Shown here: positions 1-53,357 of the stretch, piece by piece
Layout of the letters: each line of letters opens with the position of its first letter
Numbering within the stretch: position 1 is the stretch's first letter
Sequence record: PV660463
Direction: 5' to 3' (one strand)
DNA from: Escherichia phage LF82-41
Length of the DNA: 64,000 nucleotides
The notes under the pieces: generated by a model
What the model saw: only the letters and a program-made list of their open reading frames with translations
Told to the model about the DNA's origin: nothing
Databases searched by the model: none
Translations under genes and position numbers: made by a program

Positions 1-383
1 TCAATATAAAAACGTGGTTTATTAGGGTCTGCAGTGATATTGAAATTGAATTCTACATCAAAAGCGCCGTCATATCCAGTGATATCTGTGATTAGAAAAT
101 CACAATCATAATAAGCAATTAATGAATCAACCACAAATTCATTTTCAGACCAAAAATATTTACGAGTATTATACGCGTTATCTTTATACCATAATGGAAC
201 AAACTTAAATTCTGGGAAAAGACGTTCGCATTCTTTAATATCAGATGCATTACGTGGATATGTAATCACATCACCCGGATTAGCACGGTGCAAATGAAGT
301 TGGAAGTTGCCATCCTTAAGGATAGCATACTGTCCAGTTTCATAAGACCGCATACTCAAGATAGGTACGCGGAAAATAGCCAT
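1..383 (-). CDS. hypothetical protein, truncated by window edge (N-terminal ~127 aa present)
   Basis: ATG at 383..381 overlaps gene 42 stop as TAATG; open minus-strand frame runs to position 1 (MAIFRVPILSMRSYETGQYAILKDG...). Sits where T4 has beta-gt but shows no resemblance to it. Confidence 0.6.
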   Translation of the reverse strand, partial: MAIFRVPILSMRSYETGQYAILKDGNFQLHLHRANPGDVITYPRNASDIKECERLFPEFKFVPLWYKDNAYNTRKYFWSENEFVVDSLIAYYDCDFLITDITGYDGAFDVEFNFNITADPNKPRFYI

Positions 384-1141: not shown

Positions 1142-1381
1142 TTATTTGAATTTCTTGGCAATGTTGGTATACCGTAAAGCTTCAGCATCGATACTTCCAA
1201 GAACACTGTGAAGAAATGCATCAGCGTAGTATTCCAATCGAACAGGTTCTTTAATCATTTTAGCCGCTTTGGTTTCAAACAGGCCCATAAGGGCCTTTTT
1301 AAGAATTTGTTCGCTGCTGTTAATTTTTATAGTCAAAATCTCTTCGTTAAGTTGGTGGTTAAAAGTTTTTCTAGAAATCAT
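1142..1381 (-). CDS. hypothetical protein (79 aa)
   Basis: ORF in same orientation, ATGA overlap with upstream gene; no recognisable motif. Confidence 0.55.
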   Translation of the reverse strand: MISRKTFNHQLNEEILTIKINSSEQILKKALMGLFETKAAKMIKEPVRLEYYADAFLHSVLGSIDAEALRYTNIAKKFK

Positions 1382-2538
1382 TCTGGGTACCTCAAAGCGT
1401 CATCAGAGTTAGTTATATCAATAATAGATATAGAGTTTTCTGCTAACCCGTTTTTAGATAACTGACGTTTATAATATCTTTCACAATATGTACACGTCGT
1501 CCCACAGATTTCATTAGCACAATCGAAATCTGGATGTCTGAACCACCTTTTTTCTAAAAAGCCATCTAACAAAGAGGTTTCAATATTTACTGTATGTGAA
1601 AACTCAGTTTCATTTTCAAGAGTGAAAATAGTCTCTAAAGGCTTCCACAGTTCTAACAAATTACCTTCAAACTTTTCAGAAGCGTATGCTTCAAGAACTT
1701 TCAAAATGTAGTCTGTGCTACCTGTACGTCCTGAAACTTTGAATTGAGTGATACCAATATCATTATAAAGTTTCAAATCTTGAGGACGAACAAAACGAGT
1801 TCTCAACCAGTTAAATGGGTCTGTATCACGAGCTTTAATACAGTGCTGCATAGGATACCCATTTAAGGATTTAGCATCATCAGCGGTAACATCAGTACTA
1901 TGGAAAATATAGCAAGAGTCACGATAACTACAATGTGTTGTATACCCTTTACCAGCATTAGAACAGAACTCATTTACAAGAACTTCAAATATTATATTGT
2001 TCTTATTGCAAAACTCTGCTGCACGCTTCAGGAAAGAAACTGAACGGTTCTTATGAATTCCGCAACAGACCTTTTTGATGTTATATTGGTCGTGCAAGTA
2101 TTTGATTTGAGTTACAGCATCGACATGTAGAATTGTTGAAACTTCAATCTCAATATCTTTATTGACTTCACGAACAATTTCCATAACAACAGGGTTAGCG
2201 ATAGTAATACGCCATACGCCTATTGACCAAAGATACTGAACATAATCCTGAATAGCTTTCTTCTTCCACTCAACTAGTTCTCTTTTTGAACCAGGATTTA
2301 TCGTGTTGAGTGTATAGTTAAAGCAAATACCTAATTCGTTACAACGTTTAACGTAGTCTTCTAACATCTTTTTGTCAACGTCAGGAAGCCTAAAATCAGG
2401 TCTGGCTGCTACAAAAGCCATTTCTCTTGTAGAGCCATATACTTCGTTTATCAAGCTATTAGGATAAGTTTTATTGAGCTCTACGATTTTATCAAGAAGA
2501 GCTAAATCAAAATTCGTTCCGATTTTAAAAGTATTCAT
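1378..2538 (-). CDS. Cys-rich enzyme of unknown function, possible peptidase-U32-family-like (Fe-S) fold
   Basis: 386 aa; segments NYTLNT, STILHVD, EVLVNEFCSNAGKGYTTHCSYRDSC, FKVSGR resemble U32-family blocks; C-terminal CxxxxCGTTCTYC cluster. Assignment by eye only. Confidence 0.85.
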   Translation of the reverse strand: MNTFKIGTNFDLALLDKIVELNKTYPNSLINEVYGSTREMAFVAARPDFRLPDVDKKMLEDYVKRCNELGICFNYTLNTINPGSKRELVEWKKKAIQDYVQYLWSIGVWRITIANPVVMEIVREVNKDIEIEVSTILHVDAVTQIKYLHDQYNIKKVCCGIHKNRSVSFLKRAAEFCNKNNIIFEVLVNEFCSNAGKGYTTHCSYRDSCYIFHSTDVTADDAKSLNGYPMQHCIKARDTDPFNWLRTRFVRPQDLKLYNDIGITQFKVSGRTGSTDYILKVLEAYASEKFEGNLLELWKPLETIFTLENETEFSHTVNIETSLLDGFLEKRWFRHPDFDCANEICGTTCTYCERYYKRQLSKNGLAENSISIIDITNSDDALRYPE

Positions 2539-2595
2539 TTTTTTTGCATCTCGCGTTAATTGATGCGATGGTTTTTGCAGGTCTTACTTAAATTA

Positions 2596-2982
2596 TTATA
2601 GATTCGGTTTATATGATTTAAATGTTTCGAATTCGCCTTTATTCATAAGAGCTTTGAATTCGTCAGGACGCATAGCTTTGTCGTCGATAATCCAATCATA
2701 TACTGGTTTATGTGTTAGCAAATTATGGTACTTCAAACCAATGTTTTCCAAGTTCTGAATCAGACTTGGGAGAATGTCAATTGCTATACGTCCAGGACCT
2801 ACTGACTTCATACCGCGAGCAGTGTAAAGCGTTATGGTATGCCCTGCATCATACAGGGCATTAATGGCGGTCACCATTTCGACGTCTGGTTTGAAGTTCA
2901 CGTAATCACGATTGTTATTCCACTCTGTTATACAATCATCGACATCAAAACAAAGATTAAGCATGTTTTCTACACGGTGCAT
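2596..2982 (-). CDS. HAD-superfamily phosphatase (small)
   Basis: Motif I FDVDDCIT near N-terminus, motif II ITLYTAR, motif IV WIIDD; start ATG at 2982 couples to upstream stop as TAATG. Confidence 0.75.
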   Translation of the reverse strand: MHRVENMLNLCFDVDDCITEWNNNRDYVNFKPDVEMVTAINALYDAGHTITLYTARGMKSVGPGRIAIDILPSLIQNLENIGLKYHNLLTHKPVYDWIIDDKAMRPDEFKALMNKGEFETFKSYKPNL

Positions 2983-4667
2983 TAGATTCGTTCCCATTGA
3001 TGAGTGATATCGCCACCGATTGGACGATAAGAAACACCAGTTTCTTTATCAGTTAGTACCCATTTACCAGGATTTTTTGTAATCAGAGTAGCCGTTACAG
3101 GTTCTGCTACGTCATAACTAATAGAGCCGTCTTGAAGTACACGGCCCATGTTATGTAATTGCTTAGTCAGAAGTTCCATACCTTTATAATATGCGGCTAC
3201 CGCTTTAAGTGGATTATTCTTGAAATAACCACCTAATGCAATCCAGATAATTGCTACAGCCAAATGATGATACTCGTTAAACGAACTCATCTTTCCATAT
3301 TTGTAAACTAATGGATTGATGTTAATAGTCACATTACAAGTTGTTTCATCAATAGTAAACTGTCCCCAGGTCGGATTAGCATTGAATTCATCATAACCTG
3401 AAACAGCATAAAGCACTTTAGCTTCATCATATAATTTTGGCCCGTAAATCTTGGTTTCACCAAAATATCCACGAGGGTCGATAAACTTGACTTCGCCGTT
3501 ATCAGTAATCATAGTATTACTGAAGTTTGGGTCGCCGTGAATAACAGAGTACTGTCCCTGAGAACGGTTATGATAACGAATAAGATGTTCTAAAGCTTGT
3601 TTCAACATTGGCTTCAGACGTCCAATCTTAGTGTAGTTCACGTGTGTGATTTTACCAAATGAATCAATCAATGGCTGAATGCTTTCACAACGATCAATAA
3701 CTTTCGTATAGAACTCTTTAGTGAAATCACGGCGAACAGTTTCAGGACTTACAAAATAAGTGTCTGTGCTGAATTTCAGTGCATCTAAAATTGCATCAAC
3801 AATTTGTGGACGAGCAAGACTTGATTTGGATTTAATATATTCAAATGCCGGCTTACCTTTAATACGTTCCATTTCAAAATTATTTTCATTTACCGAAACT
3901 AACTGTGGAACTGAATCTGATTTCACTTTCAAATACCACGAAATCTCATCTTTCTGAAGAGCCCGTCCCTGTTCGGTTAATGCGAATTTAGTTACAGTTT
4001 CTTCACCAATTTCAACTGCATTAAAACTACGATTAAGTTCACGAACTTCATGAGCTTTTTCAAGTTTAGGCATATCACCTAAATCAATTATATTCATAAG
4101 CTCTGATTTATTGAATGCGCCGCTGTAAAGGAATTCTACGAAATCACGTCCTTTGCAGTATTCATGAATTTCCTCATCAGTAGAACCCATATAGAATTCC
4201 CAGTCTTTGAACTGATAAATTCCTACAACATTACCACCTGTTGAACCTACGTTAGTGATATTTTCACCGTCGAAATTATATCGACATTCGTCACCCTTAA
4301 CATAGATTGCGTTAACATTCCAAGACCATGAACCAAAATCAGGAATAATATCGCACCAGTTAACAACTACGTTATGGCCGTCTAAATCTTTATGTAATTT
4401 AGCAAGAGCATAAGCAGAACCATACGCTTCATCAACTGTACGAATAGTCACATTGAACCCTTCTTGCTCACAATAAGCTCGAACGGTTTCAGCAAATTTT
4501 GAATGAACTACTACAATAATTTCATCTGCGCCAAGGTCAGAATAAATTGTATACAAATTGCTCAGAATAGTGTCTTGTTTATAGTTAACAAGCACCTTAG
4601 GAATATGGTGAGTAATTGGATATAAACGAGTTGCTAATCCAGCACCAAGAATAACAGCTTTTTTCAT
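2982..4667 (-). CDS. bifunctional sugar-1-phosphate nucleotidyltransferase (N-term) / APH-type anomeric sugar kinase (C-term)
   Basis: 561 aa; N-term AVILGAGLATRLYPIT (RmlA/MurU-type G-x-G-T-R-L loop); C-term VIHGDPNFSNTMITDNGEVKFIDPRG (kinase HGD..N and D motifs, AmgK/LicA-like). Confidence 0.85.
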   Translation of the reverse strand: MKKAVILGAGLATRLYPITHHIPKVLVNYKQDTILSNLYTIYSDLGADEIIVVVHSKFAETVRAYCEQEGFNVTIRTVDEAYGSAYALAKLHKDLDGHNVVVNWCDIIPDFGSWSWNVNAIYVKGDECRYNFDGENITNVGSTGGNVVGIYQFKDWEFYMGSTDEEIHEYCKGRDFVEFLYSGAFNKSELMNIIDLGDMPKLEKAHEVRELNRSFNAVEIGEETVTKFALTEQGRALQKDEISWYLKVKSDSVPQLVSVNENNFEMERIKGKPAFEYIKSKSSLARPQIVDAILDALKFSTDTYFVSPETVRRDFTKEFYTKVIDRCESIQPLIDSFGKITHVNYTKIGRLKPMLKQALEHLIRYHNRSQGQYSVIHGDPNFSNTMITDNGEVKFIDPRGYFGETKIYGPKLYDEAKVLYAVSGYDEFNANPTWGQFTIDETTCNVTININPLVYKYGKMSSFNEYHHLAVAIIWIALGGYFKNNPLKAVAAYYKGMELLTKQLHNMGRVLQDGSISYDVAEPVTATLITKNPGKWVLTDKETGVSYRPIGGDITHQWERI

Positions 4668-4708
4668 GTTGAAGTCCTCATCGGTAAGTAGGTGTATTGT
4701 ACACTATT

Positions 4709-4852
4709 CTAGTTAAAGCATTCATACTTTGCCTGTAGACCAATCATAATCCATCCAATTACAAGTGTTGGAATCATTACCGGAGCCGTTAAGCTCCAGT
4801 AGATAGTCATGACAAGCATCAATAGTAAAAGTCCTATTGTTATTGCTTTCAT
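4709..4852 (-). CDS. small hydrophobic membrane protein (47 aa), not in supplied ORF track
   Basis: ATG overlaps stop of isomerase gene (ATGA); translation MKAITIGLLLLMLVMTIYWSLTAPVMIPTLVIGWIMIGLQAKYECFN is predicted to span the membrane; fills otherwise empty 180 bp gap. Confidence 0.4.
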   Translation of the reverse strand: MKAITIGLLLLMLVMTIYWSLTAPVMIPTLVIGWIMIGLQAKYECFN

Positions 4853-5484
4853 TGCTCGCCTCGTAACATGGCACCTAGTGCACCGCCTGGATGGAACTTA
4901 AGGAAATCATTAGAGGTAAATCCACGTTCAGATGAAAGGTTGATAGCGAACGTATCGATAAGCGCTAACAACAATGTAGTAGACATCGTCGGAGCTAAAG
5001 AGTTCTCGTCAACTTCTACCGCGATACCGGTACAGAACGTATAATCAAAAAGAGCTTCGTATTCTTGTGGAATGTCAGGGTTACAATGTAACAGAATCTG
5101 TTTAACCTGAGGACGAATCATACGAAGATGTTTAGCAACACCTATCATTTCTTCAGTCTTACCGGAACGACTGATGTGAACTAATACATCATTAGGTGCA
5201 ATAAATCCTGCGTCACCATGAGAATAATGCCCAGTGTTCAAATACATGCTAGGAATACCTAGTGAAGCAAATGTCTCAGAAGCTTTAGTTGCAATATTAG
5301 CATTCTTACCAACACCTGTAATAATTACTCGGCTTTCATAATTACTCAGTCCAGGGCGTCGAAGAGTTTCTAGAATAGCATTATAACGAGCAGGGTTTTG
5401 ACTAATTACTTTGGCCATAGCGGCCAAAGAAGAAGCTTGTTTTATGATTGCGTCAATAGCGATAGTAATAGGAGTAGTTTTCAT
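4849..5484 (-). CDS. SIS-domain sugar-phosphate isomerase, KdsD/GutQ-like arabinose-5-phosphate isomerase (no CBS domains)
   Basis: 211 aa; VIITGVGKNANIATKASETFASLGIPSMYLNTGHYSHGDAGFI and C-terminal HPGGALG match KdsD SIS-domain blocks. Confidence 0.8.
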   Translation of the reverse strand: MKTTPITIAIDAIIKQASSLAAMAKVISQNPARYNAILETLRRPGLSNYESRVIITGVGKNANIATKASETFASLGIPSMYLNTGHYSHGDAGFIAPNDVLVHISRSGKTEEMIGVAKHLRMIRPQVKQILLHCNPDIPQEYEALFDYTFCTGIAVEVDENSLAPTMSTTLLLALIDTFAINLSSERGFTSNDFLKFHPGGALGAMLRGEQ

Positions 5485-5524: not shown

Positions 5525-8236
5525 TCAAAAATCAAACATATCGAACAGAGATGCTTTCTTCTCGTAATCGAGTTTCGCTGCTGATGTGAATCCTTCAAGT
5601 GGTTTAATAAATGTCTTCTCAAGGAGAACAGTGTAGTCCATCCAATGAAGTACGTCGTCTTTAATTAAATCTGTGATTTCAGTACCAGAAGGCCATGCGA
5701 TACATTTATCACCGAACGGGTTTCCTTCACGTAAAGGCAGAACATATACTTTTTCACCTTCTACAACTTGTGGAGCATCAATATTACCTTTGATAGCTCG
5801 GTTATATGTCAGAATTCCACGAATATGGAACGGGCATTTGGGACCAGGGAATCCACCTACATCATATTTAGCAATGTTATTCGCAGAAGATACCGACGCG
5901 ATGCTAATATAATTCAATTGACGGAATTCTTTTTCAAACTCTTTAAAATATTCTTGTAATGATTCTTCACCTTCCTGAAGCATACGACGAATACATTCCT
6001 TAAGAGCTTTCTGTACTGCTTTAGGAGTCGAAGATTTCTGAGTCTCTAGACCCATGATTTTGAGTTTAGGCTCAGCGTAACGAGTACCTTCCATATCCCA
6101 CACGTTTAATGCATAACGTTTCTTACCAGTCCAGAATCCGCCAATACCTTTAGAACCAAGCGGAGGACCAGCGATAGCTTCTCGGTCCATGAACATTAAG
6201 TGTTGTTTATTGTTCATGTATTCACACATTTCACGGAAACCTTTATCAATAGCTGGTTCCATACGTTCACGTGCGAACTTATCTAAGAAGTCTACCCAAT
6301 GGTTGGTATCACGGAATTTAGATTCACCAACCTTATCGATAATTTTATCAGCAGATACGTAAATAGAGTCTGTATCACCATAAAGAACGAAAGCTTCACC
6401 TTCTGTACCACAAACTTCATTCAGATATTCATTAACTTTACGTTCAATCCACTGTAAAGCCATTTGACCAAATGTTGTGATTGCAGTAGCATTACGCAAA
6501 TCATAATAACGGAACCAAACGTTACCAAGTGCACCATAAAGCGAGTTGATGAGCAATTTACGGTTAATTTGTGCAGTCATACCTGCAACTTCAGTACGTT
6601 GAGCTCTAAACAACATTTCATTAAGAGATTTAGCAGACAACTTTTTAATCTTTTCTTTAATCTCATCGCTGAAGTCGAAACGATAATCAACATCTAATGG
6701 TTCGTCAACAGAAAGATTAGGATTATGCAATGCCTCTTTAATTATTTCACCATTACGTTGAGCTGCAAGCATGTAACCTTTATGTTCTTTACGTTGATTA
6801 AAGACCTTAGTGATTTCAGTTGGAACTACACCATCACGGTCTTTATAATACATCATGCCGTTAGGAGAGCAACTGTACACATCTGAAGGACGTTCAGCGA
6901 TTGCGTTAATATAATCATGCAGTGGAGCTACTTTAAACGTTCCTGCTATTGTTTCCGGGCTAATATTCACTTGGCGAATAATACTTGGATACAGGGATGT
7001 AAGGTCGAAACTCATTACATATTTGTATCGATTTGGAATAGGTTCCTTAACAAAAGCACCTGGATAAGGTTGAACCGGGTGAGAACGACCTTGTGGAATC
7101 ACCTTGCTCTGCTCTTTAAGGCTATTAAAAATAATAGCATCCCATGTTTTAATTGGGCTAAACACAGATTGAATCTGTATCTTAGCATAATAACCCATGT
7201 CCAAACTCAAGTTGATGAACTGACGCTTAGCATCAATTTGCAATACACGATACACGTCGATAATGTTATAAGAAATATACCGTTGGTGATTGCTTTCACG
7301 AAGCTTAGAAATAGGGCCGTCATATTTCAGTTTACCAACATTCAATTCAAATTCTGAAATGTAATCCAGAGAATACGACGGTTGATTGGTAAAAGAGAAT
7401 TTTTTGTAAAGGTCAATGTAATCAAGAACAGAGATACCGAACATTGTAATGATTTCACGAGAACCATACATGTTTTCGATAACTTTAACACGAGTTTTAC
7501 GATGTGGTGATAAACGTTTCGCAGTAGATTCGCCAAAAATATTCTTGATTCGGTTATACACATATGGAATATCAAATGACTCAACGTTCCATCCAGTCAA
7601 AATGACAGGAGTTTTCTGTTGCCAGAAGTTGAGATATTCCATCAACAATTCTTTTTCGTTATCGAACGGCATATAAATGATTTTATCGATAATTTCAGAT
7701 GGAACTTCATCACCGCCTTGTTCTTGAAGCTTAGCCGCAATTTCGATAGACCATTCTTCTACATTACCATACGGAGAATTCAATAGATCAAATACGTAGA
7801 ACCTGTCGTCAATTGAGTCATAATGGGTGATAGCATCAATCGGATGTTTTGCTTGTGACGGCTCAGGGAACCCATCCGGAGATGTTACTTCGATGTCGAA
7901 GTTAGCCACACGAATTTTTGTATGGTCGTATTTGATTTCATAGTTATAAGTGTCAGACAAATACGCCAATTTGAAATCGTCCATGCCAAGTGCTTCAAGT
8001 CCGATATCTTCCATGCGTTTAATCCATTGGGAGGCATCACGCATATTAGCGAACAACTTACGAGTACACGGTTTACCGTAGATATCGAAATATTTCGTAG
8101 CCTGACTTTCTGGACAATGAGCAAACAGTGATGGTTTATATTCTACTTCACGAGTACGTTCACGGCCATTAGAATCGATGTAACGTTCAAAAATTGAATC
8201 ACCAATCTGTTCAACCGTTAAGTAAAATTCTTTCAT
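5525..8236 (-). CDS. 43: DNA polymerase (family B)
   Basis: 903 aa; N-terminus MKEFYLTVEQIGDSIFERYID..., exonuclease and polymerase motifs (DIE, YGDTDS, KILINSLYG); synteny with regA/62/44/45. Confidence 0.97.
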   Translation of the reverse strand: MKEFYLTVEQIGDSIFERYIDSNGRERTREVEYKPSLFAHCPESQATKYFDIYGKPCTRKLFANMRDASQWIKRMEDIGLEALGMDDFKLAYLSDTYNYEIKYDHTKIRVANFDIEVTSPDGFPEPSQAKHPIDAITHYDSIDDRFYVFDLLNSPYGNVEEWSIEIAAKLQEQGGDEVPSEIIDKIIYMPFDNEKELLMEYLNFWQQKTPVILTGWNVESFDIPYVYNRIKNIFGESTAKRLSPHRKTRVKVIENMYGSREIITMFGISVLDYIDLYKKFSFTNQPSYSLDYISEFELNVGKLKYDGPISKLRESNHQRYISYNIIDVYRVLQIDAKRQFINLSLDMGYYAKIQIQSVFSPIKTWDAIIFNSLKEQSKVIPQGRSHPVQPYPGAFVKEPIPNRYKYVMSFDLTSLYPSIIRQVNISPETIAGTFKVAPLHDYINAIAERPSDVYSCSPNGMMYYKDRDGVVPTEITKVFNQRKEHKGYMLAAQRNGEIIKEALHNPNLSVDEPLDVDYRFDFSDEIKEKIKKLSAKSLNEMLFRAQRTEVAGMTAQINRKLLINSLYGALGNVWFRYYDLRNATAITTFGQMALQWIERKVNEYLNEVCGTEGEAFVLYGDTDSIYVSADKIIDKVGESKFRDTNHWVDFLDKFARERMEPAIDKGFREMCEYMNNKQHLMFMDREAIAGPPLGSKGIGGFWTGKKRYALNVWDMEGTRYAEPKLKIMGLETQKSSTPKAVQKALKECIRRMLQEGEESLQEYFKEFEKEFRQLNYISIASVSSANNIAKYDVGGFPGPKCPFHIRGILTYNRAIKGNIDAPQVVEGEKVYVLPLREGNPFGDKCIAWPSGTEITDLIKDDVLHWMDYTVLLEKTFIKPLEGFTSAAKLDYEKKASLFDMFDF

Positions 8237-19846: not shown

Positions 19847-20317
19847 TTAATCATGTTTCCACACCCCATCGGTATTTGACCAAAGCCGCTGATTATCTGA
19901 TCCTCGCCACAGCTTTTTAGTCGGAAGATTTTTCTCATACTTCCCATCAATAATAACATCAACATATTTAAGCATTTCTAGTTGTTTAATATCTTCAAAC
20001 TTATATCCTGTCCACAACCAAATGCTTTTATTGGGATAAAGATTTTTTACTGTTTGAGCAATGCAATGAATAACAACTCGGTTATCAGGATAGAGAGGGT
20101 CACCTCCGGTTATAGTTAATCCTTCTATATAATCATTATTCAAATATTCAATTAATTGTTCTAGTGTTTCACCAGTGAATGGAATACCATTTCTAGCATT
20201 CCATGTTGATTTATTATAACACCCTTCGCATTTATGCAAACAACCCGTAACGAAAAGAACGACCCTGCATCCCGGGCCATTCACAAAATCGCAAGGATAA
20301 AATCTATCATAATTCAT
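19847..20317 (-). CDS. nrdG: anaerobic ribonucleotide reductase activating protein (radical SAM)
   Basis: 156 aa; CxxxCxxC-type cluster (FVTGCLHKCEGCYN); directly downstream of nrdD. Confidence 0.9.
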   Translation of the reverse strand: MNYDRFYPCDFVNGPGCRVVLFVTGCLHKCEGCYNKSTWNARNGIPFTGETLEQLIEYLNNDYIEGLTITGGDPLYPDNRVVIHCIAQTVKNLYPNKSIWLWTGYKFEDIKQLEMLKYVDVIIDGKYEKNLPTKKLWRGSDNQRLWSNTDGVWKHD

Positions 20318-22131
20318 TGGTGTTTAACCCTATGCATGATTTCTTTATTTTTACCGAGATTAAATCCGCGTTCGTTCGGATTTCCTAAATAACCGCATGT
20401 TCTTCTTATGGTGTTCATCTTTTTAGGATCAGTTTCTCCGCAAACTGAACAAACAAATCCGTTTTCAGTAGGAGTCATTTCATGGGTACTTCCACATGTA
20501 AAACATTTATCCACTGGCATATTAACACCAAAATAATCTAAATGTTGTGCAGCATAATCCCAGACGGCCTCAAGTCCCTTTAAATTGTTTTTCATATCTG
20601 GAAGTTCAACATAAGAAATGTGACCACCTGTCGCAATGAAATGATATGGCGCTTCACGAGAAATCTTTTCAAACGGAGTAATATTTTCTTCTACTGAAAC
20701 GTGGAAACTGTTAGTGTACCAGCCTTTATCGGTAACATCTTTTACACTTCCATATTTTTCTGTATCGAGTTTACAGAAGCGATAACAAAGGTTTTCAGCA
20801 GGAGTAGAATACAAACTAAAAGCAAAACCAGTTCTTTCAGTCCACTGTTTAAGATGAGCATTCATTTTAGTTAAAATTTCTTGTCCAATATCACGACCAA
20901 CAAGAATATTCAATTCATGAATACCGATGTATCCTAAAGACACTGAACTTCTACCGTTTTTAAATAACTCAATTATATCGTCATCAGGTTTAAGACGAAC
21001 CCCGAATGCACCTTCTTGGTAAAGAATAGGAGCAACAGTCGCTTTAACTCCTTTTAAGGAACTAATTCTACATATCAAAGCTTCAAAACATAAATCCATT
21101 CGTTCATTGAATAATTCAACAAATTTCTGTTCATTGAACTGTGTTCCAATATAAGAATCTAATGCGATGCGAGGAAGATTCAGTGTTACAACACCGAGAT
21201 TATTACGTCCATCAAGAATTTCATTACCAGTCGAATCTTTCCATACGCTCAAGAAACTACGGCAGCCCATTGGAGAAACCGGAACTGAAGAACCAGTAAT
21301 AGCTTTATTATTCTTAACCGAAATAATGTCAGGATACATTCTTTTGCTTGCACATTCTAACGCAAGTTGTTTAATATCATAGTTCGGATCATCTTTATAA
21401 AGATTAACACCTTCTTCAACAAACATAACAAGTTTAGGAAAAATAGGAGTTATCCCATCACGACCAAGACCTTTAATGCGGTTTTTAAGAATTGCCTTCT
21501 GAATCATTCGTTCAGTCCAATCGGTTCCCGTACCAAATGTAATTGTTACAAAAGGCGTTTGTCCGTTTGAACTAAAGAGAGTATTTACTTCATATTCATA
21601 AGCTTGGAATGCATCGTATACGTCTTTTTCTGTTTTAGATTGAGCATAATTCAACGCATCAGCTATTTGCCATTTTTCTGCATCCTCAATATGTTTTGCA
21701 TAGGTGCGTTTAACATAAGGAGAAAGTACTTTATCTACATTAGCAAAAGTCGTTCCGCCGTATTGATGTGAAGCAACCTGTGCAGTAATTTGTGCCATAA
21801 TTGCAGTAGCAACACCAATCGATTTAGGCGTTTCAATTTGAGCATTGCCTAATTTAAATCCATTCTCAAGCATCCCCTTTAAATCGACTAAACAGCAATT
21901 AGTAAATGGAAGAGCAGGAGAATAATCAATATCATGCATATGAATGATTCCGCTTTCATGCGCATTCATAATAAAAGACGGGACCATATTTTTGGCAATG
22001 TGCTTAGACACAATACCAGCCATAAGGTCCCGTTGAGTTGGAAAAACACGAGAATCTTTATTAGCATTCTCGTTTAAAAGGTCTTTATTAGTTTTATGAA
22101 TTAATCCTTCAATTTCTTTTTCAATTTTCAT
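20314..22131 (-). CDS. nrdD: anaerobic ribonucleoside-triphosphate reductase, intron-less
   Basis: 605 aa; C-terminal CxxC...CxxC zinc site and glycyl-radical region; continuous ORF. Confidence 0.95.
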   Translation of the reverse strand: MKIEKEIEGLIHKTNKDLLNENANKDSRVFPTQRDLMAGIVSKHIAKNMVPSFIMNAHESGIIHMHDIDYSPALPFTNCCLVDLKGMLENGFKLGNAQIETPKSIGVATAIMAQITAQVASHQYGGTTFANVDKVLSPYVKRTYAKHIEDAEKWQIADALNYAQSKTEKDVYDAFQAYEYEVNTLFSSNGQTPFVTITFGTGTDWTERMIQKAILKNRIKGLGRDGITPIFPKLVMFVEEGVNLYKDDPNYDIKQLALECASKRMYPDIISVKNNKAITGSSVPVSPMGCRSFLSVWKDSTGNEILDGRNNLGVVTLNLPRIALDSYIGTQFNEQKFVELFNERMDLCFEALICRISSLKGVKATVAPILYQEGAFGVRLKPDDDIIELFKNGRSSVSLGYIGIHELNILVGRDIGQEILTKMNAHLKQWTERTGFAFSLYSTPAENLCYRFCKLDTEKYGSVKDVTDKGWYTNSFHVSVEENITPFEKISREAPYHFIATGGHISYVELPDMKNNLKGLEAVWDYAAQHLDYFGVNMPVDKCFTCGSTHEMTPTENGFVCSVCGETDPKKMNTIRRTCGYLGNPNERGFNLGKNKEIMHRVKHQ

Positions 22132-37913: not shown

Positions 37914-38275
37914 TATAGGCTCTCAGTAAAGGTACGAGCGATAACGTCACGCTGTTGTTCCGGCGTCAGAGAGTTAAAGCGAACTGCATAACCGGATACA
38001 CGGATGGTCAACTGCGGATATTTTTCTGGATGCTTAACTGCATCTTCCAGAGTTTCACGACGCAGAACATTAACGTTCAGGTGTTGACCACCTTCAATTT
38101 TAACTTTAGGTTGATGTTCAATTTCAATTTCACGGGCATTCAAACCGTAGAAAATTTCCGGGTCTACAATAGCGTCTTCTTTAAAAGTCTTAGAGACGAT
38201 AATCCGGGCTTGAGCACCGTCTTCAAAATAAATAGTGCCTTTATGTGCACCTTCAAGAATTTGATATGCTTTCAT
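37913..38275 (-). CDS. autonomous glycyl-radical cofactor (GrcA/YfiD-like)
   Basis: 120 aa; C-terminal ...[29 protein letters not shown] carries the glycyl-radical RVSGY motif. Confidence 0.8.
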
Positions 38276-52622: not shown

Positions 52623-53357
52623 TTACCTTAAGATTGTTTCAATTTTAGAATAAAGCTCTTCTAAAGAGCCGTCGTTTGTAATAACTAAATCACCTTCTTC
52701 AATAGGCAACCCAGCTTCTGTAATATGTTTATCGGTGGATTCCGTACCAGAGCGAACCACATGAATAACTGTGGCACCCATCGCTCTAGCGGTTTCCATT
52801 TCATGGACTTGGCGTGTATCGGTTACGACATAGTAATCGAAATCACTTCCAATATAATCCATATAGTTTAATGCAAAAAGCTTAACCCAATACATACGGT
52901 CAAATAAATTAACGACAACATCCGTACCGAGGGCTTGCATAAGACGGCGGATTGACCATGTGTCGTTGATATTATTTATAGCTTCACGCAGGGCTTCATA
53001 TGGTTTAATATCTAGATATGAATATCCACCTTCTAATGATGATAATACTTTAACATTATTAATTGGTAAATATTGACTTTGTAAATAAATTATCGCTTCT
53101 TCCAATAATTCAATAACATCCAACTTATTGAGATTTAATGGTGTTTCACGGTCGTATCCAATGCCTTCAAAGTATTCGTATTTCAACTCGGTGAATACGT
53201 CGGGGTTTTCAGCATGTTTACGCTCCCAGGCTATTGCTAGAGCGTCTTTAATTGGATATGCTAATTGGTATTTTACGGATTTAAAGTTTGAATTGATGTA
53301 ATCAGCAGTAGTGTCTTTACCACTACGTTTGATGCCACTTAAAAAGATTAGCTCCAT
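52623..53357 (-). CDS. 1: deoxynucleoside monophosphate kinase
   Basis: 244 aa; P-loop GIKRSGKDT; synteny. Confidence 0.88.
   Translation of the reverse strand: MELIFLSGIKRSGKDTTADYINSNFKSVKYQLAYPIKDALAIAWERKHAENPDVFTELKYEYFEGIGYDRETPLNLNKLDVIELLEEAIIYLQSQYLPINNVKVLSSLEGGYSYLDIKPYEALREAINNINDTWSIRRLMQALGTDVVVNLFDRMYWVKLFALNYMDYIGSDFDYYVVTDTRQVHEMETARAMGATVIHVVRSGTESTDKHITEAGLPIEEGDLVITNDGSLEELYSKIETILR

What the first reader, a model, noticed from the sequence alone, without database searches (positions are those of the whole stretch)
1142..5484. Complete NDP-pentose biosynthesis cassette inserted between genes 42 and 43 - candidate donor pathway for hmC hyper-modification
Seen in sequence: four co-oriented, translationally coupled genes encode (i) a KdsD-type SIS isomerase (arabinose-5-P from ribulose-5-P), (ii) a fusion of an RmlA/MurU-type nucleotidyltransferase with an APH/AmgK-type anomeric kinase, (iii) a minimal HAD phosphatase and (iv) a Cys-rich U32-like protein, plus a 47-aa membrane ORF. 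Established knowledge: isomerase, anomeric kinase, phosphatase and nucleotidyltransferase is the same logic as GDP-heptose (GmhA/HddA/GmhB/HddC) or UDP-MurNAc (AmgK/MurU) synthesis. Inference: the cassette sits beside dCMP hydroxymethylase, T4 has only imm/imm.1 here, and alpha-gt and beta-gt are missing from their T4 positions, so the phage probably decorates hmC with a pentose (arabinose) instead of glucose. Arabinosyl-hmC has been reported for RB69-type phages, but I cannot confirm from here whether these exact genes have been assigned to it.
Basis: partly seen in the sequence, partly recalled or inferred. Interest (0 to 1): 0.9.

Follow-up and report, generated by a model that had tools for sequence, protein, structure and literature searches.

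The report
Known arabinose DNA-modification cassette, one unexplained enzyme
This is the already-published gene cluster that RB69-type phages use to make UDP-arabinose for decorating their DNA cytosines (on 5-hydroxycytosine, not hydroxymethylcytosine), but its fourth enzyme is not a sugar enzyme and looks like an oxygen-independent hydroxylase that could make the modified base when the host grows without air.

Summary
The window is a Mosigvirus, 97-98% identical in DNA to RB69-type phages.

**What is already published.** The sugar-pathway reading is correct:
- an arabinose-5-phosphate isomerase;
- a nucleotidyltransferase/C1-kinase fusion (AfhE type);
- a HAD phosphatase (AfhF type).

Together these make UDP-arabinofuranose (Thomas 2018; He 2026; Lee 2026). 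Near-identical hydroxylase and phosphatase proteins are already in the PDB.

- The acceptor base is 5-hydroxycytosine, not hmC. The neighbouring "gene 42" is 237/238 identical to RB69 gp48, an O2/flavin-dependent 5-hydroxy-dCMP synthase.
- The beta-gt position is not empty. It holds an arabinosyltransferase.

**What is still open.** The U32 protein is not needed for the sugar. It is the most conserved protein of the cluster and keeps the residues essential in RlhA, the rRNA 5-hydroxycytidine synthase. In other phage genera it is paired with a chorismate mutase, which makes prephenate. In 25 unrelated phage contigs it sits with the kinase and glycosyltransferase, with no hydroxylating thymidylate-synthase homolog nearby.

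I propose it is an O2-independent, prephenate-dependent route to the 5-hydroxy base (about 0.55). I found this in no paper I could read.

The parts
3..383 (-). First 127 codons of arabinosyltransferase 1 (RB69 gp46:47 homolog). The gene runs off the left edge of the window. Its start overlaps the stop of the thymidylate-synthase homolog (TAATG).
   Evidence: 126/127 identical to Bas47_0146. The role is as assigned in PMC13326640.
383..1099 (-). 5-hydroxy-dCMP synthase. It is a thymidylate-synthase homolog, the positional counterpart of T4 gene 42, and a hydroxylase rather than a hydroxymethylase.
   Evidence: Pfam Thymidylat_synt E 2.4e-15. 237/238 identical to RB69 gp48. D169N and N177D present, catalytic Cys kept. 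PDB 9iqc/9ir2/9iqu are near-identical, E 1.8e-162. RB69 gp48 activity with 18O2 and FMN is reported in PMC13326640.
1142..1381 (-). 79-aa ORF of unknown function (RB69 gp49, phrog_8601). It is not a chorismate mutase, and it is poorly constrained.
   Evidence: No Pfam hit even at E 10. In Yersinia phage TG1 its homolog and a separate CM_2 ORF both follow U32. It is variable, frameshifted or truncated among Mosigviruses. pN/pS is 0.21-0.45.
1378..2538 (-). U32-family Fe-S-type protein (RB69 gp50). Proposed O2-independent, prephenate-dependent pyrimidine C5 hydroxylase.
   Evidence: Pfam Peptidase_U32 42.2 bits against a cut-off of 22.4. Ten invariant Cys, including C340-x4-C-x3-C-x2-C. The best E. 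coli paralog is RlhA, with E161/C169/C176 equivalents conserved. AF2 pLDDT 88.7; top PDB fold is 5d88, a U32 protein. 79-87% identical across genera.
2596..2997 (-). Small HAD-type phosphatase (AfhF type). It removes the 5-phosphate from arabinofuranose-1,5-bisphosphate.
   Evidence: NCBIfam TIGR01689 capsule biosynthesis phosphatase E 2e-13. D18-V-D-D-C motif. PDB 9iqw is near-identical, E 1e-86; 1xpj E 1.9e-10. Function is as reported for AfhF in PMC13326640.
2982..4667 (-). Bifunctional enzyme (AfhE type). The C-terminal APH-like kinase phosphorylates C1 of arabinose-5-P. The N-terminal nucleotidyltransferase makes UDP-arabinofuranose from arabinose-1-P.
   Evidence: Pfam NTP_transferase E 7.5e-10 at residues 3-99, and weak kinase matches at 354-409. 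MurU, HddC and GlmU-type matches in NCBIfam. GxGxxTR, HGDxxxxN and DPRG motifs. 99% identical to Bas47_0151. Thomas 2018 showed it is a single 561-aa protein. AfhE activities are reported in PMC13326640.
4709..4852 (-). 47-aa hydrophobic ORF (RB69 gp54 region, phrog_3610), conserved across genera. Function unknown.
   Evidence: phrog_3610 E 6.8e-27. Homologs at 55-66% identity in Kanagawavirus, Tegunavirus, Winklervirus and Dhakavirus. Mean hydropathy is about 1.9 over 19-residue windows. No nonsynonymous change against Bas47.
4849..5484 (-). Arabinose-5-phosphate isomerase: a SIS domain only, KdsD/GutQ type without the CBS domains.
   Evidence: KpsF/GutQ E 8.9e-32 and KdsD E 3.9e-30. PDB 3etn E 9.6e-25 and 2xhz E 2e-18. 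phrog_5670 'arabinose 5-phosphate isomerase' E 2.6e-116.
19850..22131 (-). Context outside the finding: anaerobic ribonucleotide reductase nrdG (19850-20317) and nrdD (20317-22131). They show the phage is equipped to replicate without O2.
   Evidence: 98% identical to RB69 NrdG and NrdD by tblastn.
52626..53357 (-). Context outside the finding: gene 1 dNMP kinase, which phosphorylates 5-hydroxy-dCMP.
   Evidence: 96% identical to RB69 gp159. Its activity on 5hodCMP is reported in PMC13326640.

Best explanation
The region is the cytosine-arabinosylation cluster of a Mosigvirus (an RB69-type T-even phage).

**Sugar branch.** These steps are shown in the literature for near-identical proteins and were confirmed here by homology:
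1. The SIS protein converts ribulose-5-P from the host pentose-phosphate pathway into D-arabinose-5-P.
2. The C-terminal kinase domain of the 561-aa fusion phosphorylates C1.
3. The small HAD phosphatase removes the 5-phosphate.
4. The N-terminal nucleotidyltransferase domain of the fusion makes UDP-arabinofuranose.
5. The glycosyltransferase that starts at position 383, plus a second one elsewhere in the genome, transfer arabinose onto 5-hydroxycytosine in DNA.

**Base branch.** The acceptor base is made as a mononucleotide by the adjacent thymidylate-synthase homolog, which uses FMN and O2. Gene 1 kinase then phosphorylates it.

**U32 protein (inferred here).** The U32 protein is not a sugar enzyme. 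I propose it is an Fe-S, prephenate-dependent hydroxylase of the RlhA/TrhP/UbiUV kind. It would make the 5-hydroxypyrimidine nucleotide without O2. The phage would then have an aerobic and an anaerobic route to the same base, in the same way that it carries both aerobic and anaerobic ribonucleotide reductases. In most other genera the U32 gene comes with its own chorismate mutase to supply prephenate. This phage lacks one and would depend on host PheA and TyrA.

**Confidence.** About 0.9 for the sugar and base pathway, about 0.55 for the U32 mechanism. The single figure given (0.8) is weighted towards the core pathway.
For: **Identity of the cluster.**
- The region is 97-98% identical in DNA to 150+ Mosigvirus records.
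- Its proteins are 96-100% identical to those of RB69 and Bas47.
- PDB entries 9iqc and 9iqw are near-identical to the hydroxylase and the phosphatase.
- The pathway is described in PMC6024577 and PMC13326640.

**U32 is dispensable for the sugar.** Acinetobacter phage DLP3 makes tri-arabinosyl-5hoC, and Dhakavirus AnYang carries the cluster. Both have the fusion, HAD, thymidylate-synthase homolog and glycosyltransferase but no U32.

**U32 as a hydroxylase.**
- It is a Pfam U32 member.
- RlhA, the ho5C synthase, is its best E. coli paralog (E 2.3e-5, 204 columns). E190, C203 and C209 align to RlhA E161, C169 and C176. Mutagenesis showed both Cys to be essential and E161A to leave only a trace of ho5C.
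- Ten Cys are invariant across homologs of 46-85% identity.
- It is the most conserved protein of the cluster: 79-87% identical across genera, against 60-83% for the polymerase and 43-73% for the fusion. pN/pS is 0.00-0.03.

**Link to prephenate.**
- A Pfam CM_2 chorismate mutase, above the curated cut-off, sits next to U32 in Kanagawavirus, in a Klebsiella phage, in Bragavirus and in Shewanella phage Thanatos-2. The Winklervirus and Tegunavirus ORFs at that position match only through the alignment and the in-house CM profile built from them.
- 51 phage records carry this chorismate mutase by tblastn. In all of them it lies in the U32/thymidylate-synthase neighbourhood.
- In unrelated phage contigs, U32 is followed by DAHP synthase or by a DAHP-synthase/chorismate-mutase fusion.
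- Prephenate is required for RlhA, TrhP and UbiU/UbiV, and it is the oxygen donor for UbiU/UbiV.

**U32 in the place of the thymidylate-synthase homolog.**
- None of the 25 non-Straboviridae IMG/VR loci, and none of 10 metagenomic loci, has a hydroxylase-type thymidylate-synthase homolog within 7-10 kb of U32.
- Of those 25 loci, 16 carry a homolog of arabinosyltransferase 1.
- Nine loci carry an overlapping kinase-glycosyltransferase-U32 trio with no arabinose genes.

**Anaerobic logic.**
- The known hydroxylase takes its oxygen from O2.
- The window itself encodes NrdD and NrdG.
- None of the 57 Acinetobacter phage records with the fusion has U32; Acinetobacter is a strict aerobe.
Against: - No biochemical or genetic test of the U32 protein exists in anything I could read. 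The mechanism rests on family analogy and gene neighbourhood.
- No direct hydroxylase activity has yet been shown in vitro for any U32 protein.
- This window has no chorismate mutase anywhere in its 64 kb. The supporting association is therefore seen in relatives, not here.
- E. coli Dhakaviruses carry the cluster without U32. U32 is thus not obligatory for a gut-phage lifestyle.
- Profile matches to UbiU, UbiV and TrhP are weak.
- Only 7-10 kb on either side of the U32 gene was visible in the distant contigs. A thymidylate-synthase homolog could lie elsewhere in those genomes.
- Lee et al. labelled gp50 'sugar or heterocycle reductase'.
- Two key papers, He 2026 (Nat Chem Biol) and Mahler 2025 (Cell Host Microbe), could not be read. 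They may contain data on this gene.
Confidence: 0.8

Rival explanations
1. The cassette supplies an NDP-pentose that is attached to 5-hydroxymethylcytosine made by a T4-type dCMP hydroxymethylase (arabinosyl-hmC).
For: This was the published view in 2018 (PMC6024577). The neighbouring gene is a thymidylate-synthase homolog at the position of T4 gene 42.
Against: - The neighbouring protein is 237/238 identical to RB69 gp48. That enzyme was shown by LC-MS, NMR and 18O2 labelling to make 5-hydroxy-dCMP, and RB69 DNA carries an ether-linked arabinose on 5hoC.
- The D169N signature of the hydroxylating branch is present.
Confidence: 0.03
2. The U32 protein belongs to the sugar branch. For example, it could be an epimerase, a reductase or a ring-form-converting enzyme acting on the arabinose precursor or on UDP-arabinose.
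For: - It lies between the phosphatase and the hydroxylase genes inside the cluster.
- Lee et al. list it as 'sugar or heterocycle reductase'.
- The Durham paper speaks of a predicted 'epimerase' in the cluster.
- The fold is a TIM barrel with many sugar-enzyme look-alikes.
Against: - UDP-arabinose formation from arabinose-5-P is attributed to AfhE and AfhF alone.
- DLP3 and Dhakavirus clusters lack U32.
- In nine distant phage loci U32 is fused into a kinase-glycosyltransferase-U32 trio with no arabinose genes at all.
- In Thanatos-2 the U32/chorismate-mutase pair sits apart from the sugar genes.
- The characterised U32 proteins act on a pyrimidine base or an aromatic ring; I found none reported to act on a sugar.
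- A sugar role does not explain the chorismate-mutase partnership.
Confidence: 0.12
3. The U32 protein is a hydroxylase but works on another substrate. Candidates are cytosine already in DNA, or host rRNA/tRNA (an RlhA- or TrhP-like host-takeover function). Alternatively it is a genuine U32 peptidase.
For: - RlhA and TrhP act on polynucleotides.
- RlhA is the closest E. coli paralog.
- Some U32 proteins were described as collagenases.
Against: - The gene always lies among nucleotide-pool and DNA-modification genes: dCMP deaminase, dUTPase/dCTPase, Tmk-like kinase, dNK, NT5C and DNA glycosyltransferases.
- It lacks RlhA's DUF3656 C-terminal region (386 aa against 653 aa).
- Ten invariant Cys fit an Fe-S enzyme rather than a protease.
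- A polymer-level DNA hydroxylase remains compatible with most of my evidence. It is a sub-variant rather than a true rival.
Confidence: 0.18

Closest known systems
Arabinosyl-5-hydroxycytosine (Afh) pathway of E. coli phages HY126, RB69, Bas46/47 and Acinetobacter phage DLP3 (He 2026; Mahler 2025; Lee 2026)
   Same: The genes, their order and the sequences match. The proteins are 96-100% identical to RB69 and Bas47. The hydroxylase and phosphatase are near-identical to PDB 9iqc and 9iqw. The window is simply another member of this system.
   Different: Nothing material differs for the sugar and base steps. In the papers I could read, the U32 gene, the 79-aa ORF and the 47-aa ORF have no assigned role.
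GDP-D-glycero-alpha-D-manno-heptose pathway (GmhA, HddA, GmhB, HddC) and the AmgK/MurU UDP-MurNAc salvage route
   Same: The four-step logic is the same: SIS isomerase, anomeric kinase, HAD phosphatase that removes the distal phosphate, then a small nucleotidyltransferase. The nucleotidyltransferase domain matches MurU, HddC and GlmU-type models.
   Different: The substrate is a pentose (arabinofuranose). The kinase and nucleotidyltransferase are fused into one protein. The kinase is APH-like rather than a GHMP kinase. This is an analogy of logic, not family membership.
T4 hydroxymethylcytosine glucosylation (gp42, alpha-gt, beta-gt, host UDP-glucose)
   Same: The overall strategy is shared: a thymidylate-synthase homolog modifies dCMP, a kinase phosphorylates it, the polymerase incorporates it, and it is glycosylated after replication. 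The genomic positions also correspond (42/43 and 42/uvsX).
   Different: The base is 5-hydroxy, not 5-hydroxymethyl, and the cofactors are flavin and O2 rather than folate. The phage makes its own sugar donor. T4-type alpha-gt and beta-gt are absent.
U32 prephenate-dependent hydroxylases: RlhA (23S rRNA ho5C2501), TrhP (tRNA ho5U34), UbiU/UbiV (anaerobic ubiquinone)
   Same: It matches the Pfam U32 domain and conserves the Glu and the two Cys of the U32 motif. It also has extra C-terminal Cys. It is genomically linked to prephenate supply. The proposed product, a 5-hydroxypyrimidine, is the same chemistry as RlhA and TrhP.
   Different: It forms a separate clade, found almost entirely on phage contigs. 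It is 386 aa, has its own CX4CX3CX2C tail and lacks DUF3656. The inferred substrate is a deoxynucleotide destined for DNA. No activity has been shown.
Paired aerobic/anaerobic enzymes: TrhO/TrhP, UbiIHF/UbiUV, NrdAB/NrdDG
   Same: The proposal is an O2-dependent enzyme (the flavin-dependent thymidylate-synthase homolog) and an O2-independent one (U32) making the same product. The phage carries NrdDG in the same window.
   Different: The redundancy is inferred here, not demonstrated.

Membership tests
Mosigvirus arabinosyl-5-hydroxycytosine cluster (RB69 gp45-55 / Afh pathway) | A thymidylate-synthase homolog of the hydroxylating branch (D169N with N177D, catalytic Cys kept) | tested here: met
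   Alignment with E. coli ThyA gives N at 169, D at 177 and C at 146. 237/238 identical to RB69 gp48.
Mosigvirus arabinosyl-5-hydroxycytosine cluster (RB69 gp45-55 / Afh pathway) | A bifunctional AfhE-type protein: N-terminal sugar-1-P nucleotidyltransferase plus C-terminal APH-like kinase | tested here: met
   Pfam and NCBIfam domain matches. The motifs GAGLATR, HGDPNFSN and DPRG are present. 99% identical to Bas47_0151.
Mosigvirus arabinosyl-5-hydroxycytosine cluster (RB69 gp45-55 / Afh pathway) | An AfhF-type small HAD phosphatase and a SIS arabinose-5-P isomerase | tested here: met
   PDB 9iqw E 1e-86 and TIGR01689 E 2e-13. KdsD/GutQ models and PDB 3etn and 2xhz.
Mosigvirus arabinosyl-5-hydroxycytosine cluster (RB69 gp45-55 / Afh pathway) | A DNA arabinosyltransferase downstream of the hydroxylase | tested here: met
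   Window 3-383 encodes the N-terminal 127 aa, 126/127 identical to Bas47_0146. The rest of the gene lies outside the window.
Mosigvirus arabinosyl-5-hydroxycytosine cluster (RB69 gp45-55 / Afh pathway) | Virion DNA actually carries arabinosyl-5-hydroxycytosine | not testable with these tools
   This needs LC-MS or NMR of nucleosides. It has been shown for RB69, Bas46/47 and NP in the literature.
T4-type hmC glucosylation system | A dCMP hydroxymethylase (folate-dependent gp42) plus alpha-gt and/or beta-gt | tested here: not met
   The gene-42 counterpart is the hydroxylase type. There is no alpha-gt between genes 47 and 55. The beta-gt position holds an unrelated arabinosyltransferase.
U32 prephenate-dependent hydroxylases (RlhA/TrhP/UbiU/UbiV) | A Peptidase_U32 domain above Pfam's curated threshold | tested here: met
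   42.2 bits against a cut-off of 22.4. The top PDB fold match is 5d88, a U32 protein, E 4e-8.
U32 prephenate-dependent hydroxylases (RlhA/TrhP/UbiU/UbiV) | The conserved Glu and two Cys of the U32 motif that RlhA mutagenesis showed to matter, plus further Cys for an Fe-S cluster | tested here: met
   E190, C203 and C209 align to RlhA E161, C169 and C176. All are invariant in 27 homologs, as are C158, C177, C192, C233 and C340/345/349/352.
U32 prephenate-dependent hydroxylases (RlhA/TrhP/UbiU/UbiV) | Binds a [4Fe-4S] cluster | not testable with these tools
   This needs spectroscopy of the purified protein.
U32 prephenate-dependent hydroxylases (RlhA/TrhP/UbiU/UbiV) | Functional dependence on prephenate | tested here: inconclusive
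   A chorismate mutase or DAHP-synthase/chorismate-mutase fusion adjoins U32 in relatives. There is none in this window. Biochemical dependence has not been tested.
AroQ chorismate mutase (as the identity of the 79-aa ORF) | A match to CM_2 or to the phage chorismate mutases | tested here: not met
   No Pfam hit at E 10. No hit to a phage chorismate-mutase profile. In phage TG1 the homolog of this ORF and a true chorismate mutase are separate genes.
GDP-heptose (GmhA/HddA/GmhB/HddC) pathway | A GHMP-type anomeric kinase and a heptose-specific GmhA isomerase | tested here: not met
   The isomerase scores as KdsD/GutQ, not GmhA. The kinase matches are APH-like, fructosamine-kinase-like and EcKL-like. 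Only the pathway logic is shared.

The most novel reading that the evidence does not exclude
The U32 gene (RB69 gp50 family) encodes an O2-independent, prephenate-dependent hydroxylase that makes 5-hydroxy-deoxypyrimidine nucleotides for DNA hypermodification.

Gut and other facultative-anaerobe phages would carry it alongside the O2/flavin-dependent thymidylate-synthase homolog, so that their DNA can be fully modified with or without oxygen. Many other phages would use it as their only hydroxylase; some of those contigs look like phages of Gram-positive or anaerobic hosts, a hint from holin, amidase and dockerin genes only. Those phages carry kinase-glycosyltransferase-U32 modules, some with a DAHP-synthase/chorismate-mutase fusion.

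If true, this would be a first reported U32 enzyme acting on the DNA precursor pool, and a second, unrelated enzymatic origin of 5-hydroxycytosine in viruses.
Probability: 0.45. Interest if true: 0.8.

Novelty: already known. Interest (0 to 1): 0.35.

Why it matters
**The flagged finding.** It re-discovers from raw sequence a pathway that took from 2018 to 2026 to work out. That is a useful check on the first-stage reader, but it adds nothing new.

**The open point: how these phages make 5-hydroxycytosine without oxygen.**
- The only known enzyme takes its oxygen atom from O2.
- Yet these are gut coliphages that carry anaerobic ribonucleotide reductase.
- They also replace all cytosine, so a failure to hydroxylate should stop replication.

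**If the U32 protein is the anaerobic hydroxylase, it would:**
1. explain a conserved gene that three recent papers left unassigned or mislabelled;
2. give the poorly understood U32/prephenate chemistry a soluble small-molecule substrate suited to in vitro reconstitution, which has not yet been achieved for RlhA, TrhP or UbiUV;
3. provide a marker for finding glycosyl-5-hydroxypyrimidine DNA in phages that have no thymidylate-synthase homolog;
4. bear on phage therapy and on phage defence studies, which are usually run aerobically.

Tried and rejected
1. **79-aa ORF as a degenerate chorismate mutase.** Rejected.
   - It has no Pfam or profile match.
   - In phage TG1 it co-exists with a true chorismate mutase as a separate gene.
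2. **A chorismate mutase elsewhere in the window.** A phage chorismate-mutase profile run against all six-frame ORFs found none.
3. **Sequence search of U32 against the PDB.** It returned only chance hits.
4. **Profile comparisons with UbiU, UbiV and TrhP.** They were too weak to use. Only RlhA gave a usable alignment.
5. **AlphaFold-database fold search.** The library was unavailable. Foldseek against the PDB gave 5d88, followed by generic TIM barrels.
6. **Reading He et al. 2026 and Mahler et al. 2025.** Neither paper is held.
   - I used what Lee et al. 2026 report about them.
   - No held paper links U32 to phage DNA hydroxylation.
   - The transposon-mutagenesis preprint on Bas46 and LC53 gave no essentiality data for these genes.
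7. **A simple rule that aerobic hosts lack U32 and anaerobic hosts have it.** Only partly supported.
   - Acinetobacter phages lack it.
   - E. coli Dhakaviruses lack it too.
8. **The single thymidylate-synthase homolog found near U32 in a distant phage (L040).** It is an ordinary ThyA type (D169, N177) and is not counted as a hydroxylase.

Full report
**1. What is in the sequence**

The ORF listing shows a run of minus-strand ORFs between a thymidylate-synthase (TS) homolog (383-1099) and DNA polymerase (5525-8236). In order of transcription they are:
- SIS protein, 4849-5484
- 47-aa hydrophobic ORF, 4709-4852
- 561-aa fusion protein, 2982-4667
- 133-aa HAD-like protein, 2596-2997
- 386-aa U32-like protein, 1378-2538

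- The SIS protein scores as KpsF/GutQ/KdsD (E 1e-30 to 1e-32).
- The N-terminus of the fusion scores as a sugar-1-phosphate nucleotidyltransferase, with MurU, HddC, GlmU and RmlA-type models.
- Residues 354-409 of the fusion score weakly as an APH-like or fructosamine kinase.
- The 133-aa protein scores as an EcbF/BcbF capsule-biosynthesis phosphatase.
- The 386-aa protein scores as Peptidase_U32, above Pfam's cut-off.

The catalytic motifs are visible in the sequence: GAGLATR, HGDPNFSN, DPRG, and DVDDC. Coupling by overlapping start and stop codons exists at four junctions, not at all of them.

**2. Where it comes from**

The 4.4-kb region is 97-98% identical to more than 150 Mosigvirus genomes, including phiC120, Bas47 and RB69. 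The whole window is collinear with RB69. Its proteins are 96-100% identical to those of RB69 and Bas47.

The 2021 GenBank record of Bas47 already calls these genes 'putative enzyme involved in UDP-arabinose biosynthesis', 'putative phosphatase' and 'putative phosphosugar isomerase'.

**3. What the literature already says**

- Thomas et al. 2018 (PMC6024577) found arabinose on RB69 DNA. They proposed ORF055c and the corrected ORF53_52c fusion as UDP-arabinose genes.
- Lee et al. 2026 (PMC13326640) showed that the sugar is ether-linked to 5-hydroxycytosine, not to hmC.
  - They showed that RB69 gp48, the TS homolog, makes 5-hydroxy-dCMP with oxygen from 18O2 and a bound flavin.
  - They showed that gene 1 kinase phosphorylates the product.
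- Lee et al. also summarise He et al. 2026. In phage HY126, AfhE is both the arabinose-5-P C1-kinase and the UDP-arabinose pyrophosphorylase, and AfhF is the Mg-dependent phosphatase.

The PDB holds near-identical chains for the hydroxylase (9iqc, 9ir2, 9iqu; E 1.8e-162) and the phosphatase (9iqw; E 1e-86).

The window's TS homolog is 237/238 identical to gp48. It carries the D169N and N177D signature.

Alpha-gt is indeed missing between genes 47 and 55. The beta-gt position, however, holds arabinosyltransferase 1, whose first 127 codons are at window 3-383.

**4. The part that is not explained: the U32 protein**

Lee et al. list gp50 only as 'sugar or heterocycle reductase', without discussion. 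Their Discussion says that the two other known pyrimidine-hydroxylation pathways, both in tRNA modification, use no homolog of the new enzyme. It does not connect those pathways to gp50. The Durham paper speaks of a predicted 'epimerase' in the cluster.

Several results argue that gp50 is not a sugar enzyme:
- Acinetobacter phage DLP3, which makes tri-arabinosyl-5hoC, has SIS, fusion, HAD, TS homolog and glycosyltransferases but no U32. Dhakavirus AnYang also lacks it.
- UDP-arabinose formation is attributed to AfhE and AfhF alone.
- In Shewanella phage Thanatos-2, U32 sits away from the sugar genes, after the kinase.

**5. What the U32 protein looks like**

A search of 5.8 billion proteins found 268 relatives. 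They form a phage clade at 76-87% identity and a large clade of roughly 360-aa proteins at 46-58% identity.

In an alignment of 27 of them, E190 and ten Cys are invariant: C158, C177, C192, C203, C209 and C233, plus a C-terminal C340-x4-C345-x3-C349-x2-C352.

Among the four E. coli U32 paralogs, the profile aligns best with RlhA, the 23S rRNA 5-hydroxycytidine synthase (E 2.3e-5, 204 columns). E190, C203 and C209 fall on RlhA E161, C169 and C176. In Kimura et al. the two Cys mutants abolished ho5C formation and E161A left only a very small amount. RlhA also needs C-terminal Cys, Fe-S biogenesis and prephenate.

The AF2 model is confident (pLDDT 88.7, pTM 0.89). Its best PDB match is the U32 protein Mk0906.

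U32 proteins RlhA, TrhP and UbiU/UbiV are the known O2-independent hydroxylation factors. Prephenate is the oxygen donor for UbiU/UbiV.

**6. Selection**

Across genera, U32 is the most conserved protein of the cluster:

| Protein | Identity to the window's copy |
|---|---|
| U32 | 79-87% |
| DNA polymerase | 60-83% |
| TS homolog | 70-83% |
| Fusion | 43-73% |

Within Mosigviruses it shows 16-17 synonymous and 0-2 nonsynonymous differences. pN/pS is 0.00-0.03, similar to the polymerase. The 79-aa ORF is by contrast loosely constrained (pN/pS 0.21-0.45). In some isolates it is frameshifted or truncated.

**7. The prephenate link**

An ORF with a Pfam CM_2 match above the curated cut-off lies directly after U32 in three phages, and two small ORFs further downstream in a fourth:
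- Enterobacter phage Entb_45
- a Klebsiella phage
- Shewanella phage Thanatos-2
- Proteus phage phiP4-3 (the one with the two intervening ORFs)

tblastn with the Entb_45 chorismate mutase finds 51 phage records. All hits lie in the U32/TS neighbourhood, and none is a Mosigvirus.

The window's own 79-aa ORF is not a chorismate mutase. Yersinia phage TG1 has both a homolog of that ORF and a separate chorismate mutase. No chorismate mutase exists anywhere in the 64-kb window. This phage would therefore have to rely on host PheA and TyrA.

**8. Distant phages**

Neighbourhoods of the 46-58% homologs are consistently about nucleotide pools and DNA modification:
- dCMP deaminase directly upstream of U32
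- UDG and Pol III alpha
- Tmk-like kinase
- dUTPase/dCTPase
- dNK and NT5C
- TAGT and other glycosyltransferases
- UDP-galactopyranose mutase

In L023, U32 is followed by a DAHP-synthase/chorismate-mutase fusion. In L011 it is followed by a DAHP synthase.

The ORF overlapping the start of U32 in L014, L021 and L022 is a homolog of Mosigvirus arabinosyltransferase 1 (E 6e-13, 7e-16 and 3e-9).

A scan of IMG/VR returned 40 loci. I searched them with profiles I built myself.

| Feature within 10 kb of U32 | 15 Straboviridae loci | 25 other loci |
|---|---|---|
| Hydroxylase-type TS homolog | 15 | 0 |
| Glycosyltransferase (arabinosyltransferase-1 type) | 15 | 16 |
| Tmk-like kinase | 15 | 15 |
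| AfhE-like fusion | 15 | 10 |
| SIS isomerase | 11 | 8 |
| Chorismate mutase | 13 | 5 |

- The one TS found among the 25 other loci (L040) is an ordinary ThyA type, with D169 and N177.
- In four of the five non-Straboviridae loci the chorismate-mutase hit lies in an ORF of about 320-350 aa. In L053 Pfam confirms this ORF as a DAHP-synthase/chorismate-mutase fusion.
- Six IMG/VR loci plus L014, L021 and L022 have a contiguous, overlapping kinase-glycosyltransferase-U32 trio with no arabinose genes.
- Pfam on L053 confirms the order glycosyltransferase, Tmk, SIS, fusion, DAHP-synthase/chorismate-mutase fusion (84.8 and 86.1 bits), HAD-like, U32.

So U32 travels with the base and transferase part of the system. 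It occupies the slot that the TS homolog fills in T-even-like phages.

**9. Proposed mechanism and its status**

| Status | Statement |
|---|---|
| Shown (literature, near-identical proteins) | The sugar pathway, the O2-dependent hydroxylase, the kinase, and the arabinosylation of DNA |
| Inferred here | gp50 is an Fe-S, prephenate-dependent C5 hydroxylase of a deoxypyrimidine nucleotide, giving an O2-independent route to the same base |

The biological logic rests on three points:
- The known hydroxylase needs O2.
- These phages replace all cytosine.
- The window encodes NrdD and NrdG for anaerobic dNTP supply.

None of the 57 Acinetobacter phage records that carry the fusion has U32; Acinetobacter is a strict aerobe. 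I infer this from the organism counts, because the seven unlisted categories are accounted for by genera seen.

Weak points:
- There is no experiment.
- No U32 protein has been reconstituted in vitro.
- This window has no chorismate mutase.
- Dhakaviruses of E. coli lack U32.
- Only 7-10 kb on either side of the U32 gene was examined in the distant contigs.
- Two relevant papers could not be read.

I put the mechanism at about 0.55. I put the chance that it is both true and unpublished at about 0.45.

**10. Verdict**

The flagged cassette is real, correctly read in outline, and already known. The base it serves is 5-hydroxycytosine rather than hmC. Overall interest is low to moderate. The follow-up worth making concerns the U32 gene.

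Noticed in passing
window 19850-22131 (nrdG, nrdD) and 37916-38275 (vs.6, GrcA-like): The window encodes an anaerobic ribonucleotide reductase with its activase, and a GrcA-like glycyl-radical spare part. The phage is therefore built to replicate without oxygen, although its only characterised cytosine hydroxylase needs O2.
   Followed up: partly
window 1142-1381: The 79-aa ORF between U32 and the hydroxylase is much less constrained than its neighbours (pN/pS 0.21-0.45). It is frameshifted or truncated in several Mosigvirus isolates. Homologs occur only in Mosigvirus, Tegunavirus, Pectobacterium phage PM2 and one Serratia phage record. Its function is unknown.
   Followed up: partly
window 4709-4852: The 47-aa, strongly hydrophobic ORF overlaps the stop of the isomerase gene. 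It is conserved at 55-66% identity across four other genera, including Dhakavirus, which lacks the isomerase. RB69 annotates a shorter version as 'similar to T4 42-imm intercistronic region'. It may be a small membrane protein unrelated to the sugar pathway.
   Followed up: partly
L008 1-249, L009 12160-13185, L021 5972-7000, L053 2644-4366: Radical-SAM proteins recur within a few genes of the U32 homolog in unrelated phage and bacterial contigs. Those in L008, L009 and L021 also match the SPASM domain. The Straboviridae cluster has none. This could be a partner or an alternative redox component.
   Followed up: no
L009 / L010 (86-kb contig with a dockerin-bearing GH43 gene): This is an apparently cellular, Clostridia-like locus. 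It carries two U32 paralogs together with NT5C, a PnuC-like transporter, a deoxynucleoside kinase, a nucleoside 2-deoxyribosyltransferase and a radical-SAM/SPASM protein. It looks like a nucleoside-modifying island of unknown purpose.
   Followed up: no
L008 7447-9086 and L012 6504-8083: In very large phage contigs (up to 466 kb) with Pol III alpha and UDG, the U32 homolog is immediately preceded by a dCMP deaminase. This hints that some family members may act on dUMP (5-hydroxyuracil) rather than dCMP.
   Followed up: no
L003 (Klebsiella phage CP-p-KP-21072) and L018 (Dhakavirus AnYang): These clusters lack the SIS isomerase but keep the fusion and the phosphatase. They presumably draw arabinose-5-P from host KdsD or GutQ. 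The phosphatase is widely mis-annotated as 'phosphoheptose isomerase', and U32 as 'peptidase' or 'collagenase'.
   Followed up: partly
L025 (Klebsiella phage Marfa, IMG/VR copy): Marfa, like the Mosigviruses, has U32 directly followed by the TS homolog with no chorismate mutase. Its U32 is the closest to the Mosigvirus one (89%). This suggests a single loss of the chorismate mutase in that lineage.
   Followed up: no
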